Part shown: positions 36,261-58,047 of the stretch, in pieces | Position numbering within the stretch: position 1 is the first letter of the stretch | Layout of the letters: every line of letters starts with the position of its first letter | Virus record (IMG/VR): IMGVR_UViG_3300028840_002691 | Coordinates: 41,095 to 105,094 of that record | Reading direction: 5' to 3' (one strand) | DNA from: a virus | Length of the DNA: 64,000 nucleotides | The notes under the pieces: model-generated | The model's input: only the letters and a program-made list of their open reading frames with translations | What the model was told of the DNA's origin: nothing | Databases searched by the model: none | Program-made: the position numbers and the translations under genes

Positions 36261-36465
36261 ACGTAAAGATCCAGACTTCACCGTAGACCAGATTGAGCAC
36301 CTGCGGCACATGTGCCTAAACGAGCTGGTGGTGGACTTCAGCCAGTGCAAGTGCTTCCACGAGTGTTGTCTGCTGAATGCCTTTGAGGCCAGAATGAAGA
36401 AGAAACTGGACGATCTGATGAAGGCGGCAAAGAAGTATGAGCGAACTAAGAGAGAAACAAAATAG
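36253..36465 (+). CDS. Small Cys-rich hypothetical protein
   Basis: C....C..C....C pattern; overlaps neighbours. Confidence 0.5.
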   Translation: MPKRKDPDFTVDQIEHLRHMCLNELVVDFSQCKCFHECCLLNAFEARMKKKLDDLMKAAKKYERTKRETK

Positions 36466-36757
36466 ATTCGCCAGGATGTATGCACAGCTAATATTGTATG
36501 CTCAGGAGCTTGGCTATACGCTGGCGCTGGCGGACTGATACCGCAGTCCGCGTATGGAGCCGTGGTACGGCAACCCAAACTCCTGTCACAAGATAAAACT
36601 GGCTGGTGATCTGGACATATTCAAAGGTGAAGAGTATTTGACCAAAACTGCCGATCATGAACCTCTAGGCAAATTCTGGGAGTCAATGGGTGGCTCTTGG
36701 GGCGGACGGTTCAATGACGGCGATCACTATTCAGTTTCCTACAAAGGAAGGAGGTAA
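36437..36757 (+). CDS. Endolysin, peptidase M15 family, with in-frame TGA at 36536-36538
   Basis: MSELREKQNRFARMYAQLILYAQELGYTLALAD*YRSPR...NSCHKIKLAGD...WGGRFNDGDHYS; SxH-x6-D and DxxH zinc motifs. Confidence 0.85.
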
Positions 36758-52565: not shown

Positions 52566-53906
52566 ATGTGCGGGTTGAACTTCTGTACGATTGATCCTGA
52601 GACTTATATCCCTTTGATGAATGAAAAGATATCTTATAGGGGTATTCGTTCTAATTGGTATGTCTATGATGATCTTGGGTTTGGTCATGTTAGACTCCCA
52701 ATACAAGGCGTCGATGAAAAATACGATCAGCCGTTTGAGTATAAGAACTGGATCATTCTTTATGTTGGAGAGATATTCAACTATAAGAAGATAGACCCGA
52801 CTGCGAATAGTGATATTGAAGTATTGGCCAAGTCTTGGGATCTGTATGGTGAAGGATGCTTTCATCTGTTTGATGGTTTTTGGTCAGTTGTAGTTTATGA
52901 TAAACAGACAGGCGAGACTCATGTCTTTACAGATTTTCTTGCTAAGAAGCCGCTTTATATCCACAAGTACACGAGTTCTGTTTCTTCTGAGATAAAGTCC
53001 CTTTGTCCTTTTAATGGGTATAAGTATTGGCAGGACGAGTACTATTTTTCTTGTGTCAATAAATGGGGCTATTGCCTTAATGAGCATACTTTTATTTCTT
53101 CTGTTCGTAAGATTCCTCCTTGTACTCATCTTGTGATAAAGAACATGAAAGTGGTTTCCGAAAAGAGATACATGGGCATTTCTCCTAGAAAGATTCACCT
53201 AAGAGAAAAGATAGAAACTGCTGTCTATAATAGATTGGTTTCTGATATTCCTATCTCACTTGTATGTTCTGGTGGGTTGGATTCGTCTATTATTTATAAA
53301 TTGGTAGAGAAGAAGACGCATGATTTTACTATCTTTCATATTGATAACAAGGAGGGTGAATATCTTAACTATCTGAAGATTCCTGGTGATATTAATGTTG
53401 TGATGCTTTCGTTGGATCAGTTTGATTTGAATGAAGTGCTTTACTATAATGAGGGACCAGTTGATCTAGGTTCTGTGTTTCCTCAATATGAAATGGCCAG
53501 TGCTATTGCTGGTACCGGGTTGAGCGTCGCTCTTTCTGGTGATGGTGCTGATGAGTTGTTTGGTGGATATACTAGGATATCTGATTATGATTCTCAGTGG
53601 TCTGATGTATTTGAGGAGTTGGTTTATTATCATTTGCCGAGACTTGATAAGTTAATGATGGCTAAGACAATCGAACTGCGCTGTCCTTATCTTTCTGAAC
53701 CTGTGATTGCTGGGGCGCTTTCACTTCCTTATAAAGACAGGATGAAAAAGAAAATCTTGAAAGAAATGTTTTCTGATATTCTTCCAAAACAGATTATTGA
53801 AAGGGACAAGGTAGCTTTGAAGAGTAAAATGGTTTTGGAAGGTGGGTTGGAATGGCGATATTATCTTGTTAACAAATTCAGAGCGGAGGTATTTAATGAA
53901 TATTGA
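52566..53906 (+). CDS. Asparagine synthetase B-like glutamine amidotransferase
   Basis: N-terminal MCG, RG, GHVRL.I, GEIFN, SGGLDSS, SGDGADELFGGY, ELRCPYL. Confidence 0.92.
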   Translation: MCGLNFCTIDPETYIPLMNEKISYRGIRSNWYVYDDLGFGHVRLPIQGVDEKYDQPFEYKNWIILYVGEIFNYKKIDPTANSDIEVLAKSWDLYGEGCFHLFDGFWSVVVYDKQTGETHVFTDFLAKKPLYIHKYTSSVSSEIKSLCPFNGYKYWQDEYYFSCVNKWGYCLNEHTFISSVRKIPPCTHLVIKNMKVVSEKRYMGISPRKIHLREKIETAVYNRLVSDIPISLVCSGGLDSSIIYKLVEKKTHDFTIFHIDNKEGEYLNYLKIPGDINVVMLSLDQFDLNEVLYYNEGPVDLGSVFPQYEMASAIAGTGLSVALSGDGADELFGGYTRISDYDSQWSDVFEELVYYHLPRLDKLMMAKTIELRCPYLSEPVIAGALSLPYKDRMKKKILKEMFSDILPKQIIERDKVALKSKMVLEGGLEWRYYLVNKFRAEVFNEY

Positions 53907-54318
53907 TGACGCTGGGAGTGTTGTGGTACCGGAGCATGAAGATGATATGCTTAGATTGGTTTTTGCTAGACAGAGGGAGCTGATGGAGAAGTATCATCCG
54001 ATTGAGAAAGAAAAGGGATTATTGCAGGATGAAAATATTCCTGTGAATATTGATTCTCATCTTGGACAAGCTAGGTTAAAAGACTTTGCCTGGCGTGTTA
54101 CTGAAGAGATCGGTGAGGCGATGAATTGTTTGAAAAATAAACCTTGGAAACAGACTCAGATGCAGACAGATGTCCATCATTATTTAGAAGAGATTGTTGA
54201 TGCCTTTCATTTCTTTATAGAACTTTGTATTCTTTCGGGGATGTCTGCTGAAGATCTTTTCACTTTTTACTTCAAGAAGAGTGAGGTCAATAAGTTTAGA
54301 CAGCGGTCAAACTACTGA
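53896..54318 (+). CDS. All-alpha (dimeric dUTPase/MazG-like) dNTP pyrophosphatase
   Basis: EEIGEA, KPWK, EEIVDAFHF, K...N..RQ...Y. Confidence 0.85.
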   Translation: MNIDDAGSVVVPEHEDDMLRLVFARQRELMEKYHPIEKEKGLLQDENIPVNIDSHLGQARLKDFAWRVTEEIGEAMNCLKNKPWKQTQMQTDVHHYLEEIVDAFHFFIELCILSGMSAEDLFTFYFKKSEVNKFRQRSNY

Positions 54319-54833
54319 TGCGATCACTGAAACTTATAGAAAGATGTGTTCATAATTGCAGGAGGTGTGGTGATACCTTTGGCAACTCTGCCTGTGGTTT
54401 TGGCAAAGATGATAAGCCTTATGTCTTTTTTATAGGGACGAATCCGTGGGTTAAAGATCATGCTTTTGAGGATGGCAAGGGAATTTCTATTTTGAAAAGA
54501 AATCTGGCTGAATGGAAGTTTGATGATTTTTACTTTTGTAATATAGTAAAATGCCAAATGCCTTGGAATGGGAACCCGAGACAAGAACAGATCGATAACT
54601 GTAGGTCCTATTTGCTTGAACAAATAGAGGTTGTTAGACCAGGAATGCTGGTGTTTTTTGGTAAACAGGTTTCTGAATCGTTTGGTCTTCGATTTCTTCC
54701 TTGGACTTTTGAGAATTTTGGTGAACGCGATGTCCTTATCGTCCCGCACTTTTCATCTATTTTATATGGTGGGACAATTGAGGATATCAAAAGATACTAT
54801 AGAAGATTGAAGGAGGATTTGGATATTGACTAA
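54318..54833 (+). CDS. Family-4-like uracil-DNA glycosylase fold protein with divergent motifs
   Basis: CRRC, FIGTNP, NIVKC, P....I.NC..YL.EQI....P, PHFS. Confidence 0.8.
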   Translation: MRSLKLIERCVHNCRRCGDTFGNSACGFGKDDKPYVFFIGTNPWVKDHAFEDGKGISILKRNLAEWKFDDFYFCNIVKCQMPWNGNPRQEQIDNCRSYLLEQIEVVRPGMLVFFGKQVSESFGLRFLPWTFENFGERDVLIVPHFSSILYGGTIEDIKRYYRRLKEDLDID

Positions 54834-56068
54834 ACCCAGGGCACTTGGTGTTACATGTGGGATTGGAAGTATGTTGATTGGTGCCAGACAAGCTGGGTTT
54901 GATATTGTTGGCAATATTGAGTGGAGAAAATACTACCATACTGGAACGTTTGAATATAATTTCCCTGGTGCTTTTATGGTAAAGGAGCTGTCTGCTCTAT
55001 CGCCAAGGATAATTCGCTCTTTAAGGGGGATTGACTTGGTGATGGGGCATCCCTGACTGTGGTAACTATAGTATTCTTTTATCGAGTGGGGGGCATAACA
55101 AAAAGGAACTGATGGAGAAGAGAAAACATCCCTCGGATATTCCTTTGTTTATCAAACTTGTTTCTATTCTTAAACCCAGATTTTTTGTTATGGATAATCT
55201 TCCAGGAGCCATCTGTGCTGTTGGGCCAGATTTTTGGTCTTCTAATCTTTCTTCTTATGATATTTTTTTTGAGTGGGTTAGCAATTATCATTATGGTAAC
55301 TTACAGATTAGGAGAAACAGGCTGTTTATTATTGGTTGTCTTAGGGGCGAAAGTTTTACTTTTGTTCCTGGGGAGAAAGAATTATTCTTGTCTATGAAAG
55401 AGATCTTATCAGACCTTCTACCAGTTTCTTCGTATGGTAGATTTCCGAATCATAGCAAGTTAGACATGAAAGAGAGAGTTGGTGTTGGAAAGAGGATGAA
55501 TTTTTCTGGTTGTTATGATTATCGTTCTTTTGTGGGTTTTGATACGCTATTGGAAAGTGGTGAATGGTCTGATGTCCGAAGATATTTTTCTGCTGTCCCA
55601 GAAGGACATGTGATGACTTATATAAATAAGGAGGGACGGGTAGCAAGAAGAGCTGGTACTAGTAAACCATATTGGAGTGGTCATTCTCATGTTATTGATG
55701 GATCAAGTCCCAGTATACATCCAAAAAAGAATCTTCCTTTTACGATAAGAGAAAGGGCTCGTATTCAGGGCTGTCCGGATGATTTTGTTTTTATCGGTGA
55801 GAAGCTTAATAGTAAGGGAGAATGGGGTTTTTATAAGAATAGTAATCTAATTAAGCAAACCGGTAAGTTTATGCCTGTCCAATTTTGCAGGTATATCTCT
55901 GAGCAGATTATGGCTTATATGAAGGGTAGAAAATTCAAGTGTTCTGGAAGGCGGTTGATAAAAGAGAATCAATCTATCAGCGAGGCTAAGAAATGGTATT
56001 GTGAAAACGTTGGTTACTCTAATCAAAAACTAGCTTGTAAGTATTGCTGGCTAGATTGTGGGAGGTGA
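54826..56068 (+). CDS. Divergent C5-cytosine methyltransferase-like protein joined by a +1 frameshift at CCC-TGA (55051-55056)
   Basis: Motif I TCGIGS and AGF...IE in ORF 54826-55056; +1 frame gives GHP-DCGNYS and continues into ORF 55112-56068 (MDNL, QIRRNRLFIIG, RERARIQG.PDDF, QTGK.MPV). Confidence 0.85.
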
Positions 56069-56073
56069 GCTAA

Positions 56074-56481
56074 ATGAAAGTAGAGGTTTTGTTCAATGGT
56101 ACTAAGATTACTTATGTTAGAATTGGTGATTTCTTCTATGATCTTCTTTTCTTGCTAGATGATCTTTCACCGTTGGATGCTCTTAGGAGTAACTTTAATT
56201 CTATTTTTGATCTTTTGTCTGAGTTTGGTTCGGTTGCTAATTCTTCTTCTATTGAATCTGCTGATAAAAGATCGATTTCTTCTATGTTGCATCAGGTTAA
56301 GAATCTTCGGGATCTTTTGAAGAAGGATCATGATCGTGAGTATTTAGTTAAGTTGAAATATGATTTGGCTTTGAAGTTGAAAGGGTTAGGATATCTGCCG
56401 GGTTTTAGTACCTGGACACCTATTGAGAAAGGTGCTTGCTGGTTCAATCCAGAAAGGAGAAGAATAACGAATGAGAATTGA
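56074..56481 (+). CDS. Hypothetical protein
   Basis: GGAGGTG RBS; in operon. Confidence 0.65.
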   Translation: MKVEVLFNGTKITYVRIGDFFYDLLFLLDDLSPLDALRSNFNSIFDLLSEFGSVANSSSIESADKRSISSMLHQVKNLRDLLKKDHDREYLVKLKYDLALKLKGLGYLPGFSTWTPIEKGACWFNPERRRITNEN

Positions 56482-57349
56482 GGATGCTAAATTTGAAATA
56501 GTTAACAAAAAATCTGGGAAAAGGTTGCCCAGAGACTATCATTGTTCTTGTTCTTTTTGCAAGGGTGGATATTCTGGAATGTTGATAAGGAGTGATGGTA
56601 GTAAATATAGCCGTCGTGTTCGTTCTTACTATTATGATGAAGGGGAGAGAGTTCATCCAGCAAAAACTCCTCTTCATTTGGCTCGCTATTGTGTACAAAC
56701 TTATACTGAATCGGGGGATTGGGTTTTTGATCCGACTATTGGTGCGGGAACTACTGCAGTAGAAGCTTTAAATTTTGATAGGAATGTTGTTGGGATAGAA
56801 CTTTGTTATTATGATAATGTTTTATTGAATATAAGAAAAAATTGTCGTGATGGTAAAAGATATAAAATCTTTCATGGCGATGCTATCGATTGTGGTAAAT
56901 TTCTAAAGAAAGCGGGGAGAAAGTTTAGATTGATTATTAACAATCCACCTTATTCTGCTGATACTATTGTTCAATGGGGATTTACTGGTAGTGGTAAGGA
57001 GGTAAGATATGAAACAGGTGAATCTGGAAATCTTGCCTTTAAAAGAGAGAATGATGAGTATTATAAATTTATTAGGGATATCTATCAAGAAGCCTGTAAG
57101 CATTTACTTTTTGGGGGGTATTTTGTAGTTGGTGTTAAGGATATGATGAGACAGAAGAAGCCCTATTTACTTCATTTCTATCTTGGAAAAATACTGGAAG
57201 AGTTTTTATCGTTTAAAGAAATGATTCTTCTTCCTCATTATCCCCCGACGTTGTTTATGAATACTTATAGAAAAAGGTATCCAGAGGTTGAGAAGATACC
57301 TTTATATCAAACTATTTTGGTTTTTAGAAAGGAGAAGAATAGCAAATGA
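56471..57349 (+). CDS. N4-C/N6-A amino-methyltransferase
   Basis: HPAKTP, DPTIGAGTT, NPPY. Confidence 0.88.
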   Translation: MRIEDAKFEIVNKKSGKRLPRDYHCSCSFCKGGYSGMLIRSDGSKYSRRVRSYYYDEGERVHPAKTPLHLARYCVQTYTESGDWVFDPTIGAGTTAVEALNFDRNVVGIELCYYDNVLLNIRKNCRDGKRYKIFHGDAIDCGKFLKKAGRKFRLIINNPPYSADTIVQWGFTGSGKEVRYETGESGNLAFKRENDEYYKFIRDIYQEACKHLLFGGYFVVGVKDMMRQKKPYLLHFYLGKILEEFLSFKEMILLPHYPPTLFMNTYRKRYPEVEKIPLYQTILVFRKEKNSK

Positions 57350-58047
57350 GGATTTATAATGATCCTGTAGAGATGGTCAAGGAGGTTGAAAGAGATCTTT
57401 TTGAAATGGGTCTTCGTGTTGATTGTCATACTGTACAGGACAAGAATGTGGAAGGCGACTCGGATTATCAGAACCTTGAACTGTTTGGTTATACTTATCG
57501 ATTGACTTCTTTTACTTCTCAAAAACTTTCTGAGATGATTGCTTATATGAAAGGGAATGAAGAGTGGGCAAAACATGAATTAGTTGACCGTTTGTCGCCG
57601 GAGTATATCAATCCAGGTAAAGCATATAAGAAGTGGGAAAAGGTTTGGAAACCATTTTTAAGAGATGGGACTTTTTCTTATACTTATAACCAAAGGATTA
57701 GGGATCAACTTCCCTGTGTAATTCAAGAACTGAAAAAGAGGCCAAATAGCAGGCAGGCAATTATTACGGTTTATGACAAACATCTTGACATGAATAATTG
57801 GGGTGGGCTTGATCGTGTATGCTGTTCTCTTTACTATCAACTGTTCTATCGATCTGGTAAATTGAATATGATCTATTCTATGAGAAGTTGTGATTTTCTT
57901 ACTCACTTTGTTCATGATGTTTATTTTGCTATTGGTATTCTTAGATATGTGGCTAAGGAGTTGGACTGGGATGTTGGTTTCTTTATTCATTTTCTTGGCT
58001 CATTGCATGCGTTTAGGAAGGATATGGAAGGGAGGGGGATATTTTAA
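57346..58047 (+). CDS. Thymidylate-synthase-family enzyme, dCMP-specific type (hydroxymethylase/methylase-like)
   Basis: SRQA, catalytic C in VCCSLYYQ, MRSCD...HD, GSLH. Confidence 0.88.
   Translation: MRIYNDPVEMVKEVERDLFEMGLRVDCHTVQDKNVEGDSDYQNLELFGYTYRLTSFTSQKLSEMIAYMKGNEEWAKHELVDRLSPEYINPGKAYKKWEKVWKPFLRDGTFSYTYNQRIRDQLPCVIQELKKRPNSRQAIITVYDKHLDMNNWGGLDRVCCSLYYQLFYRSGKLNMIYSMRSCDFLTHFVHDVYFAIGILRYVAKELDWDVGFFIHFLGSLHAFRKDMEGRGIF

What the first reader, a model, noticed from the sequence alone, without database searches (positions are those of the whole stretch)
55038..55060. prfB-like +1 frameshift signal immediately before the predicted catalytic Cys of the C5-MTase
The sequence reads ATG GGG CAT CCC TGA C, closely mirroring the RF2 autoregulatory site AGG GGG TAT CTT TGA C. 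It has a G-rich SD-like element 3 nt upstream, a codon whose tRNA can re-pair in +1 (CCC to CCT, both Pro) and the weak stop context UGA-C. The +1 frame restores G-H-P-D-C-G-N-Y-S and is open to 56068, so full-length enzyme requires the shift. Inference: MTase dosage is limited by, or tied to, RF2 availability. A single extra C from sequencing error or recent mutation would look identical.
Basis: partly seen in the sequence, partly recalled or inferred. Interest (0 to 1): 0.78.

Follow-up and report, generated by a model that had tools for sequence, protein, structure and literature searches.

The report
Conserved +1 frameshift in phage methylase
A phage gene for a DNA cytosine-methylase-like enzyme is broken by one extra base just before its catalytic cysteine, at a sequence (CCC-UGA) where ribosomes are known to slip forward; the same break recurs in distant relatives, so it is most likely a built-in throttle on enzyme production, not an error.

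Summary
ORF1 (54826-55056, 76 aa) ends ATG GGG CAT CCC TGA. The +1 frame is open only from 55043 and runs to 56068. In-frame homologues read GH-P-[E/D]-CG-x-[F/Y]-S across this point, so the frame change must lie inside CCCT (55051-55054).

It is very unlikely to be a sequencing error. A contig from another sample and study spans the site with no differences.

It is not a private mutation. A homologue that is 38-57% identical (L062) has CAT CCC TGA G at the same codon, with PECGSYS following in +1. Eleven further 90%-identity clusters of N-terminal ORFs (17 distinct sequences counting the window's) end exactly at ...GHP. Seven of them form a pure clade with 52-86% pairwise identity. DNA is in hand only for the window and L062.

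Best reading (about 0.7): an evolutionarily retained CCC_UGA "shifty stop" +1 ribosomal frameshift. This signal is known from Listeria phage tail genes and E. coli pheL, but I found no report of it in a DNA-modification enzyme.

The prfB-like details are weak. The G-run is not conserved (GGA in L062), the base after UGA differs (C versus G), and no downstream RNA structure stands out. The proposed link to RF2 is untested.

Inteins occupy the same catalytic-Cys site in many homologues.

The parts
54810..54817 (+). Shine-Dalgarno sequence (AAGGAGGA) for ORF1, 8 nt before the TTG start
   Evidence: It shows that the host system uses SD-led initiation. The next gene (ATG 56074) also has GGGAGGTGA upstream.
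54826..55056 (+). ORF1: N-terminal 76 aa of the C5-MTase-like enzyme (motif I, GIGSM, through ...MGHP), ending at UGA
   Evidence: (PF00145 profile positions 7-67). The identical ORF is on record from JGI, ENA and Logan assemblies.
55044..55047 (+). GGGG run 3 nt upstream of the shift codon. It is a possible weak SD-like stimulator and is not conserved in L062.
   Evidence: GGG is the rarest Gly codon in this phage (19%) and among in-frame relatives (3 of 27). This is suggestive only.
55048..55050 (+). CAT (His), the codon immediately 5' of the shift codon, presumably in the E site at the moment of the shift; identical in L062
   Evidence: In-frame relatives use CAT 21 times and CAC 10 times.
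55051..55057 (+). Shift site CCC_UGA_C. Peptidyl-tRNA-Pro on CCC re-pairs with CCU (55052-54), and the next codon read is GAC (55055-57).
   Evidence: Literature on CCC_UGA: PMC3082878 and PMC5009743.
55055..56068 (+). ORF2 in the +1 frame: 337 aa carrying the catalytic Cys (55058-60), DNL (in place of ENV), QxRxxR, the TIRERARIQGCPDDF motif and a Cys-rich C-terminus
   Evidence: PF00145 profile positions 94-322, 40 bits; 333 homologues; 117 of 129 family-conserved positions kept.
55112..56068 (+). The 318-aa ORF that gene callers annotate (P0003). It starts after the catalytic Cys and so could not carry out Cys-dependent catalysis on its own.

Best explanation
The CCC_UGA at 55051-55056 is a genuine feature of this phage's DNA that has been retained in evolution. 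It sits inside the Pro codon of motif IV (GH-P-[D/E]-CG) of a divergent C5-cytosine-methyltransferase-like gene.

Most ribosomes probably terminate at the UGA and release a 76-aa N-terminal fragment. A minority slip instead. While the UGA waits for RF2, and release after a C-terminal Pro is slow, peptidyl-tRNA-Pro slips from CCC to CCU. The ribosome then reads GAC-TGT... in the +1 frame and makes the 413-aa enzyme with the consensus GHPDCGNYS active-site loop.

The likely effect is to hold the enzyme at a small fraction of ORF1 translation. In E. coli, bare CCC_UGA gives roughly 2% or less, and more in favourable contexts.

Shown here: the sequence, its presence in a second sample, the exact restoration of the family consensus, and the recurrence and conservation of the break in relatives. 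Inferred: that ribosomes actually shift, the efficiency, and any dependence on RF2.
For: 1. Anatomy. The overlap is 14 nt, and homologues place the frame change within CCCT with no residue gained or lost.

2. Not an error. The X5 contig, from a different sample and study, spans 55007-55165 with 0 differences and 0 gaps. The X1/X2 contigs are identical to the window at about 9x depth. ORF1 is on record from JGI, ENA and Logan contigs of 13,671, 13,639 and 105,094 bp.

3. Same site in a distant homologue. L062 (JACKQG010002505.1) reads GGA CAT CCC TGA G, with PECGSYS... continuing in +1 for 335 codons. Its N part is 57% and its C part 38% identical to the window's. It lies in a syntenic AsnB-like / MazG-like / TS-like module.

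4. Recurrence. A profile search for short proteins found 11 further 90%-identity clusters ending exactly at ...GHP, out of 43 short hits. Counting the window's own there are 17 distinct sequences, from JGI, ENA, Logan and NCBI.

5. Conservation. Seven of these clusters (52-86% pairwise identity, including the DNA-verified L062 ORF) form a pure clade. The other four lineages each sit next to in-frame genes, and the tree needs at least 5 state changes.

6. No decay. The window's joined protein keeps 117 of 129 family-conserved positions, against an in-frame mean of 122.5 (sd 5.3).

7. Not a mutational hot spot. A T8 run at 55263-70 in the same gene is intact, and in-frame relatives use all four Pro codons.

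8. UGA is an ordinary stop in this phage: 22 of 56 long ORFs end with it.

9. CCC_UGA is an established +1 shift-prone 'shifty stop', used by Listeria phage tsh genes (PMC3082878 and PMC5009743).
Against: DNA is in hand for only two of the broken genes, the window and L062. For the other GHP-ending ORFs the +1 continuation is inferred. The metagenome pattern scan that should match such junctions recovered only L062, and I cannot tell whether the other contigs are in that collection.

No relative closer than about 56% identity exists, so conservation of the site in this phage's own lineage is untested.

All 47 gene copies examined in IMG/VR loci are in frame (45 uninterrupted, 2 with an intein), so the broken form is a small minority of the family.

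No conserved stimulator was found. The G-run is not shared with L062, and the RNA downstream folds no better than shuffled sequence (z about -0.1).

L062's joined protein is the most divergent in the set, keeping 98 of 129 conserved positions. This could reflect relaxed constraint.

There are no expression or protein data.
Confidence: 0.7

Rival explanations
1. A recent inactivating 1-nt insertion: the gene is a young pseudogene in this phage lineage. The extra C in CCT GAC automatically creates CCC TGA, so the resemblance to a recoding signal would be a by-product of the P-D coding sequence.
For: An insertion of C into CCT GAN always yields CCC TGA. The GG of the G-run is forced by the conserved Gly codon. 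All 47 gene copies in the IMG/VR loci examined are in frame. No conserved stimulatory element was found. The phage carries a second DNA methylase (N6_N4_Mtase), so loss of this one might be tolerated.
Against: The same break at the same codon occurs in L062. At least 11 other clusters of ORFs end at GHP, including a pure, diverged clade of 7. Random inactivation would scatter along the gene and would favour the T8 run at 55263-70. Both halves are otherwise intact and typically conserved. The allele is present in more than one sample.
Confidence: 0.15
2. A two-piece enzyme. The 76-aa N fragment and a separately initiated C fragment assemble non-covalently, as in split C5-MTases such as M.AquI, with no frameshifting.
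For: In L062 the +1 frame has a TTG four codons upstream of the Cys, giving an ORF that begins MDIPECG....
Against: In the window the +1 frame has no ATG, GTG or TTG between its upstream stop (55040-42) and the Cys codon. The first start is ATG 55112, after the Cys. No SD precedes any candidate start. The L062 TTG is simply what TTT GGA reads as in the +1 frame. A split inside the catalytic loop, with Pro shared between the two frames, is not how known split MTases are cut.
Confidence: 0.07
3. A sequencing or assembly artefact: one spurious C in a short homopolymer.
For: Only contigs, not raw reads, could be inspected.
Against: X5, from another sample and study, has an identical 159-nt contig across the site. 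Several assemblies carry the same ORF1. An unrelated assembly of a divergent homologue shows the same CCC TGA.
Confidence: 0.02

Closest known systems
CCC_UGA 'shifty stop' +1 frameshifting (Listeria phage A118/A500/PSA tsh tail genes; E. coli pheL; rare antizyme variants)
   Same: The core signal is identical: CCC in the P site can re-pair with CCU in +1, and a slow UGA sits in the A site after a C-terminal Pro. As in the Listeria phages, the setting is a phage gene. As in pheL, no 3' RNA structure is needed (PMC3082878 and PMC5009743).
   Different: In the Listeria phages the shift adds a C-terminal extension to a structural protein, so two useful products are made. Here the shift lies inside the catalytic loop of an enzyme, and the non-shifted product is a 76-aa fragment with no evident function. 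The gene family (C5-MTase-like) is new for this signal. I found no report of it.
prfB (RF2) autoregulatory +1 frameshift, CUU_UGA_C with an internal Shine-Dalgarno sequence
   Same: It is a +1 shift at a UGA stop that is needed to make the full-length protein. In the window a G-rich element lies 3 nt upstream and a C follows the UGA.
   Different: The shift codon is CCC, not CUU. The SD-like element is only GGGG and is absent from L062 (GGA). The base after UGA is G in L062. The product is not a release factor, so there is no autoregulatory loop. Dependence on RF2 is only the general property of any UGA shifty stop.
'Savior indel' with low-level compensatory frameshifting (for example herpesvirus thymidine kinase G-run mutants, reviewed in PMC5009743)
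   Same: A 1-nt indel cuts expression to the small fraction rescued by ribosomal slippage, and that lower level is what selection favours.
   Different: Those cases are recent mutants selected under drug pressure. Here the state is kept across a clade with down to 52% identity and recurs in at least 5 lineages.
Phage C5-MTase-like DNA hypermodification enzymes paired with an asparagine-synthetase-like ligase (CmoX/CmoY of Synechococcus phage S-B43, PMC12783734)
   Same: A C5-MTase homologue sits next to an AsnB-like enzyme in a phage nucleotide-modification module.
   Different: No CmoA (Cx-SAM synthase) is present in this genome. The best PDB matches by sequence are M.HaeIII and other ordinary C5-MTases. 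No frameshift or intein is mentioned in that paper. The chemistry of this family is unknown.

Membership tests
CCC_UGA shifty-stop +1 programmed frameshift | The P-site codon CCC can re-pair in +1 (CCU), and it is followed directly by an in-frame UGA | tested here: met
   (window). (L062).
CCC_UGA shifty-stop +1 programmed frameshift | The +1 ORF encodes the conserved continuation of the same protein, joined without gain or loss of residues | tested here: met
   The joined reading GHP|DCGNYS equals the family consensus. PF00145 N-terminal and C-terminal profile positions are split between the two frames.
CCC_UGA shifty-stop +1 programmed frameshift | The site is conserved among diverged homologues | tested here: met
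   DNA-verified in L062. Eleven more clusters of ORFs end at GHP, and 7 of them form a pure clade. The DNA of those others was not seen, so the test is met at DNA level for two genes and at ORF level for the rest.
CCC_UGA shifty-stop +1 programmed frameshift | The frameshift product is actually made (reporter assay, western blot or junction peptide) | not testable with these tools
   No RNA or protein data are available.
prfB-type frameshift cassette | An internal Shine-Dalgarno sequence lies 3 nt 5' of the shift codon and is conserved | tested here: not met
   The window has GGGG at the right spacing. L062 has only GGA. The G's are codon-forced (Gly).
prfB-type frameshift cassette | Poor termination context UGA-C | tested here: inconclusive
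   C follows UGA in the window and G follows it in L062.
prfB-type frameshift cassette | The product is RF2 and closes an autoregulatory loop | tested here: not met
   The product is a PF00145 methylase-like protein.
DNA C5-cytosine methyltransferase (Pfam PF00145) | Profile match above the curated cut-off | tested here: met
   The C part scores 40.1 bits against a cut-off of 22. The N part scores 19 bits, below the cut-off on its own. The in-frame homologue P0004 scores 74.8 bits over profile positions 2-322. The family profile matches M.HaeIII at 4e-18.
DNA C5-cytosine methyltransferase (Pfam PF00145) | Canonical catalytic motifs: Pro-Cys (PCQ) in motif IV and ENV in motif VI | tested here: not met
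   The whole family has [E/D]-C-G in place of P-C-Q, and DNL in place of ENV. The Cys is kept, but the chemistry may differ from plain methylation.

The most novel reading that the evidence does not exclude
The one-base insertion at motif IV may be a repeatedly selected device, not just tolerated leakiness. It arose or was kept in at least 5 lineages of this phage enzyme family, at exactly the codons where inteins home in many other members. It could (a) throttle a DNA-modifying enzyme to catalytic amounts and tie its synthesis to the host's UGA-termination capacity, and/or (b) disrupt the recognition site of the intein homing endonucleases, protecting the gene against invasion while CCC_UGA slippage keeps it expressed.
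Probability: 0.15. Interest if true: 0.85.

Novelty: new member of a known kind. Interest (0 to 1): 0.62.

Why it matters
Well-supported programmed +1 frameshifts in bacteria and phages are few: prfB, some phage tail genes, and a handful of others.

This case would add an enzyme family in which the shift lies inside the catalytic loop, is conserved across a diverged clade, and seems to have arisen several times. That makes it a natural system for asking why low-efficiency recoding is selected.

It also has a practical consequence. Gene callers split these genes into a 72-88-aa 'methylase' fragment and a Cys-less 318-340-aa ORF, so their activity, and the DNA-modification status of these phages, would be mis-predicted.

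Finally, frameshift sites and inteins share the same few codons. This points to a conflict over that site that could be tested.

Tried and rejected
- The contigs encoding P0009 and the other GHP-ending ORFs could therefore not be fetched.

- **Scans that found no further broken gene.**
  - IMG/VR (three patterns for the broken junction): 0 hits.
  - Genome collection (P0127 query): nothing.
  - Genome collection (junction pattern): 24 chance hits, none an MTase.
  - Metagenome collection (junction pattern): 76 hits, of which only L062 is a homologue.

- **Other searches with no match.** blastn of the region and tblastn of P0147 against GenBank phages found nothing. Relatives of a virus record cannot be drawn.

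- **Sequencing runs.** No RNA holder was listed, so nothing can be said on expression. X1 and X2 appear to be one data set filed twice. X3 does not cover the site.

- **Alternative genetic code** (TGA as a sense codon): rejected. The window is 88% coding on the + strand under code 11, and 22 of 56 long ORFs end in TGA. Even if TGA were read through, the 0 frame stops 3 codons later at TAA.

- **Selenocysteine at the TGA:** rejected for the same reason.

- **Phage suppressor or Pro tRNA:** the genome has no tRNA genes.

- **Downstream stimulatory RNA structure:** none stands out.

- **Transcriptional slippage and phase variation:** a 3-nt C run is too short, and the T8 run in the same gene is intact.

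- **CmoA/CmoX/CmoY system:** no CmoA is present.

Full report
**1. The observation**

The window at 55042-55057 reads ATG GGG CAT CCC TGA C. ORF1 starts at TTG 54826, 8 nt after an AAGGAGGA Shine-Dalgarno sequence, and overlaps the stop of the upstream UDG-like gene. It ends at the TGA at 55054-56 after 76 codons (...DLVMGHP).

The +1 frame carries a TGA at 55040-42 and is then open from 55043 to 56068. It reads P-D-C-G-N-Y-S across the site. Its first ATG (55112) lies after the Cys codon (55058-60). The 318-aa ORF that gene callers report (P0003) therefore lacks the catalytic Cys.

Pfam PF00145 (C5 DNA methylase) matches ORF1 over profile positions 7-67 and the +1 ORF over positions 94-322. 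One methylase-like gene is therefore divided between two frames exactly at motif IV.

**2. Where the frame change must be**

A search with the C part found 333 homologues of 380-550 aa; the best is 51% identical by BLASTP to the C part alone (56% over the joined sequence). In 111 of the 120 listed, motif IV reads GH-P-[E/D]-C-G-x-[F/Y]-S in a single frame.

The window's joined reading, ...IDLVMGHP|DCGNYS..., reproduces this with no residue gained or lost. His comes from the 0 frame and Asp from the +1 frame, so the extra base lies within CCCT (55051-54).

**3. Not a sequencing artefact**

- Contigs of runs X1 and X2 are identical to the window. They have the same lengths and so probably represent one data set filed twice.
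- A 159-nt contig of X5, from another sample and study, covers 55007-55165 with no difference and no gap.
- ORF1 is on record from JGI, ENA and Logan contigs of 13,671, 13,639 and 105,094 bp.
- Only contigs, not raw reads, could be inspected.

**4. Relatives**

*In-frame relatives.* The 47 gene copies examined in loci fetched from IMG/VR are all in frame. Of these, 45 are uninterrupted and 2 carry an in-frame intein at the Cys (L037, L050).

*Short ORFs ending at the same residue.* A search for short proteins like ORF1 returned P0127 (72 aa, NCBI MBC8183254.1), which ends at ...AFGHP.

*DNA of a second broken gene.* A degenerate pattern for the broken junction, scanned over the metagenome collection, gave 76 hits. 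Only one is a homologue: L062 (JACKQG010002505.1), which encodes P0127.
- Its DNA reads GGA CAT CCC TGA G.
- P-E-C-G-S-Y-S follows in +1, and the +1 reading stays open for 335 codons from the Glu codon after the shift site; the listed ORF from an upstream TTG is 339 aa.
- Its N part is 57% and its C part 38% identical to the window's.
- It sits in the same kind of module: AsnB-like, MazG-like, TS-like and dCMP-deaminase-like genes.

*More ORFs ending at GHP.* A profile of 20 N parts (A2) then found 43 short proteins. Eleven further 90%-identity clusters end exactly at ...GHP. With cluster members and the window's own ORF, this gives 17 distinct sequences from JGI, ENA, Logan and NCBI assemblies. 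The other short hits end at scattered positions, as contig-end fragments would.

*Phylogenetic pattern.* The GHP-ending ORFs are 37-86% identical to each other. On a tree of about 200 N parts:
- seven of them, including the DNA-verified P0127, form a pure clade;
- the other four lineages (the window, P0141/P0143, P0138, P0144) each sit beside in-frame genes;
- at least 5 changes of state are needed.

*Full-length tree.* The window and L062 fall in one 7-tip subclade of 119 tips, with in-frame genes between them.

**5. Why this points to a retained recoding site and not to decay**

- Random inactivation would scatter along a 1.2-kb gene and would favour long homopolymers. The T8 run at 55263-70 is intact. 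A CC-to-CCC change is no hot spot.
- In-frame relatives use all four Pro codons here (CCG 9, CCT 7, CCC 7, CCA 5). Both DNA-verified broken genes have the shift-prone CCC.
- The break persists across a clade that has diverged to 52% identity, while motif I, NIEWR-YY and GHP stay conserved.
- The window's joined protein keeps 117 of 129 family-conserved positions, against an in-frame mean of 122.5 (sd 5.3).
- L062 keeps only 98 of 129. It is the most divergent sequence in the set, although its ORF is uninterrupted and its motifs are intact. This is a caveat.

**6. Mechanism**

CCC_UGA is described as 'especially +1 shift-prone'. It is used for Listeria phage tsh genes. In E. coli it generally gives no more than 2%, but it reaches 15% in pheL through 5' nascent-peptide effects (PMC3082878 and PMC5009743).

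In this phage UGA is an ordinary stop: 22 of 56 long ORFs end with it. The phage has no tRNA genes. CCC is its rarest Pro codon, at 11%.

The inferred events are these. Peptidyl-tRNA-Pro sits on CCC with UGA in the A site. RF2 release after Pro is slow. The tRNA re-pairs with CCU, and GAC (GAG in L062) is read next.

I found no conserved stimulator:
- The GGGG run 3 nt upstream matches prfB spacing, but L062 has GGA there.
- The base after UGA is C in the window and G in L062.
- The downstream RNA folds no better than shuffled sequence (z about -0.1).

The prfB analogy is therefore only partial, and the efficiency is unknown. Dependence on RF2 follows from the general properties of a UGA shifty stop and was not tested.

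**7. Rivals**

- *A young pseudogene* (0.15) is compatible with the window alone but not with sections 4 and 5.
- *A two-piece enzyme* (0.07) fails in the window, because no start codon precedes the Cys in the +1 frame. The TTG in L062 is simply what TTT GGA reads as in +1.
- *A sequencing or assembly error* (0.02) is contradicted by section 3 and by L062.
- *TGA recoding or selenocysteine* is excluded, because the 0 frame stops again 3 codons later.
- *An intron or other insertion* at this site remains possible for the GHP-ending ORFs whose DNA I could not fetch.

**8. Context and comparison**

The family is a divergent branch of the C5-MTases. It has [E/D]-C-G in place of P-C-Q and DNL in place of ENV. 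Its best solved relative by sequence is M.HaeIII.

The gene lies in a nucleotide-modification operon: AsnB-like amidotransferase, dUTPase_2/MazG-like, UDG-like, this gene, an N6_N4 methylase and a thymidylate-synthase-like gene. The AsnB-like gene and this gene are also neighbours in L062 and L050.

This recalls CmoX/CmoY (PMC12783734), but no CmoA is present. The enzyme's chemistry is unknown.

Literature searches for frameshifting in DNA methyltransferase genes found only phase-variable type III enzymes and general reviews. I therefore know of no description of this site.

**9. Verdict**

- It is a new member of a known kind of recoding signal, in a new gene family, conserved in one clade and apparently recurrent.
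- Interest is 0.62.
- The scan had not reported this frameshift on other DNA.

Noticed in passing
P0172-P0176, P0187, P0194, P0200, P0216, P0218, P0128; L037:2112-3001; L050:3225-3606: Many homologues carry an intein inserted exactly at the catalytic Cys of motif IV (GHPEC|F...VGD-VLTH...). This is two codons from the frameshift site, so these few codons are a hot spot for interruptions in this family.
   Followed up: partly
window 36437-36757 (TGA at 36536-38): A small M15-peptidase-like (endolysin-type) gene has one in-frame TGA (..LAD*YRSP.., GAC TGA T). Pfam Peptidase_M15_4 matches the part after the stop weakly (E = 0.00028, below the cut-off). This is a second gene in the phage whose full product would need a non-standard event at UGA.
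   Followed up: partly
window 52566-58047; L062:1574-6196; L050:1599-3606: An AsnB-like amidotransferase and this MTase-like gene are neighbours in three very different phage contigs. In the window and L062 they also lie with MazG/dUTPase_2-like and thymidylate-synthase-like genes. This is probably an uncharacterised cytosine hypermodification module. No CmoA is present in this genome.
   Followed up: partly
L011:1409-3936; L016:1553-3933 (same contig as L040): Some phage contigs carry two tandem paralogues of this MTase-like family, both in frame.
   Followed up: no
P0009 (386 aa, JGI/Logan, 12,565-bp contig): This homologue's called ORF begins just after motif IV (MNPYRGDDPSDIPLF...), like the window's 318-aa ORF. 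It may be another interrupted gene with a different junction. Its DNA could not be fetched.
   Followed up: no
window 55263-55270: A T8 homopolymer lies inside the +1 ORF (..D I F F E..) and is intact. It serves as an internal control against the idea that slippage mutation explains the break.
   Followed up: yes
runs X1 and X2: A 'sediment metagenome 2018' run and a 'seawater metagenome 2021' run yield contigs of identical length (5,915 and 57,050) and near-identical depth. They look like one data set filed under two records.
   Followed up: no
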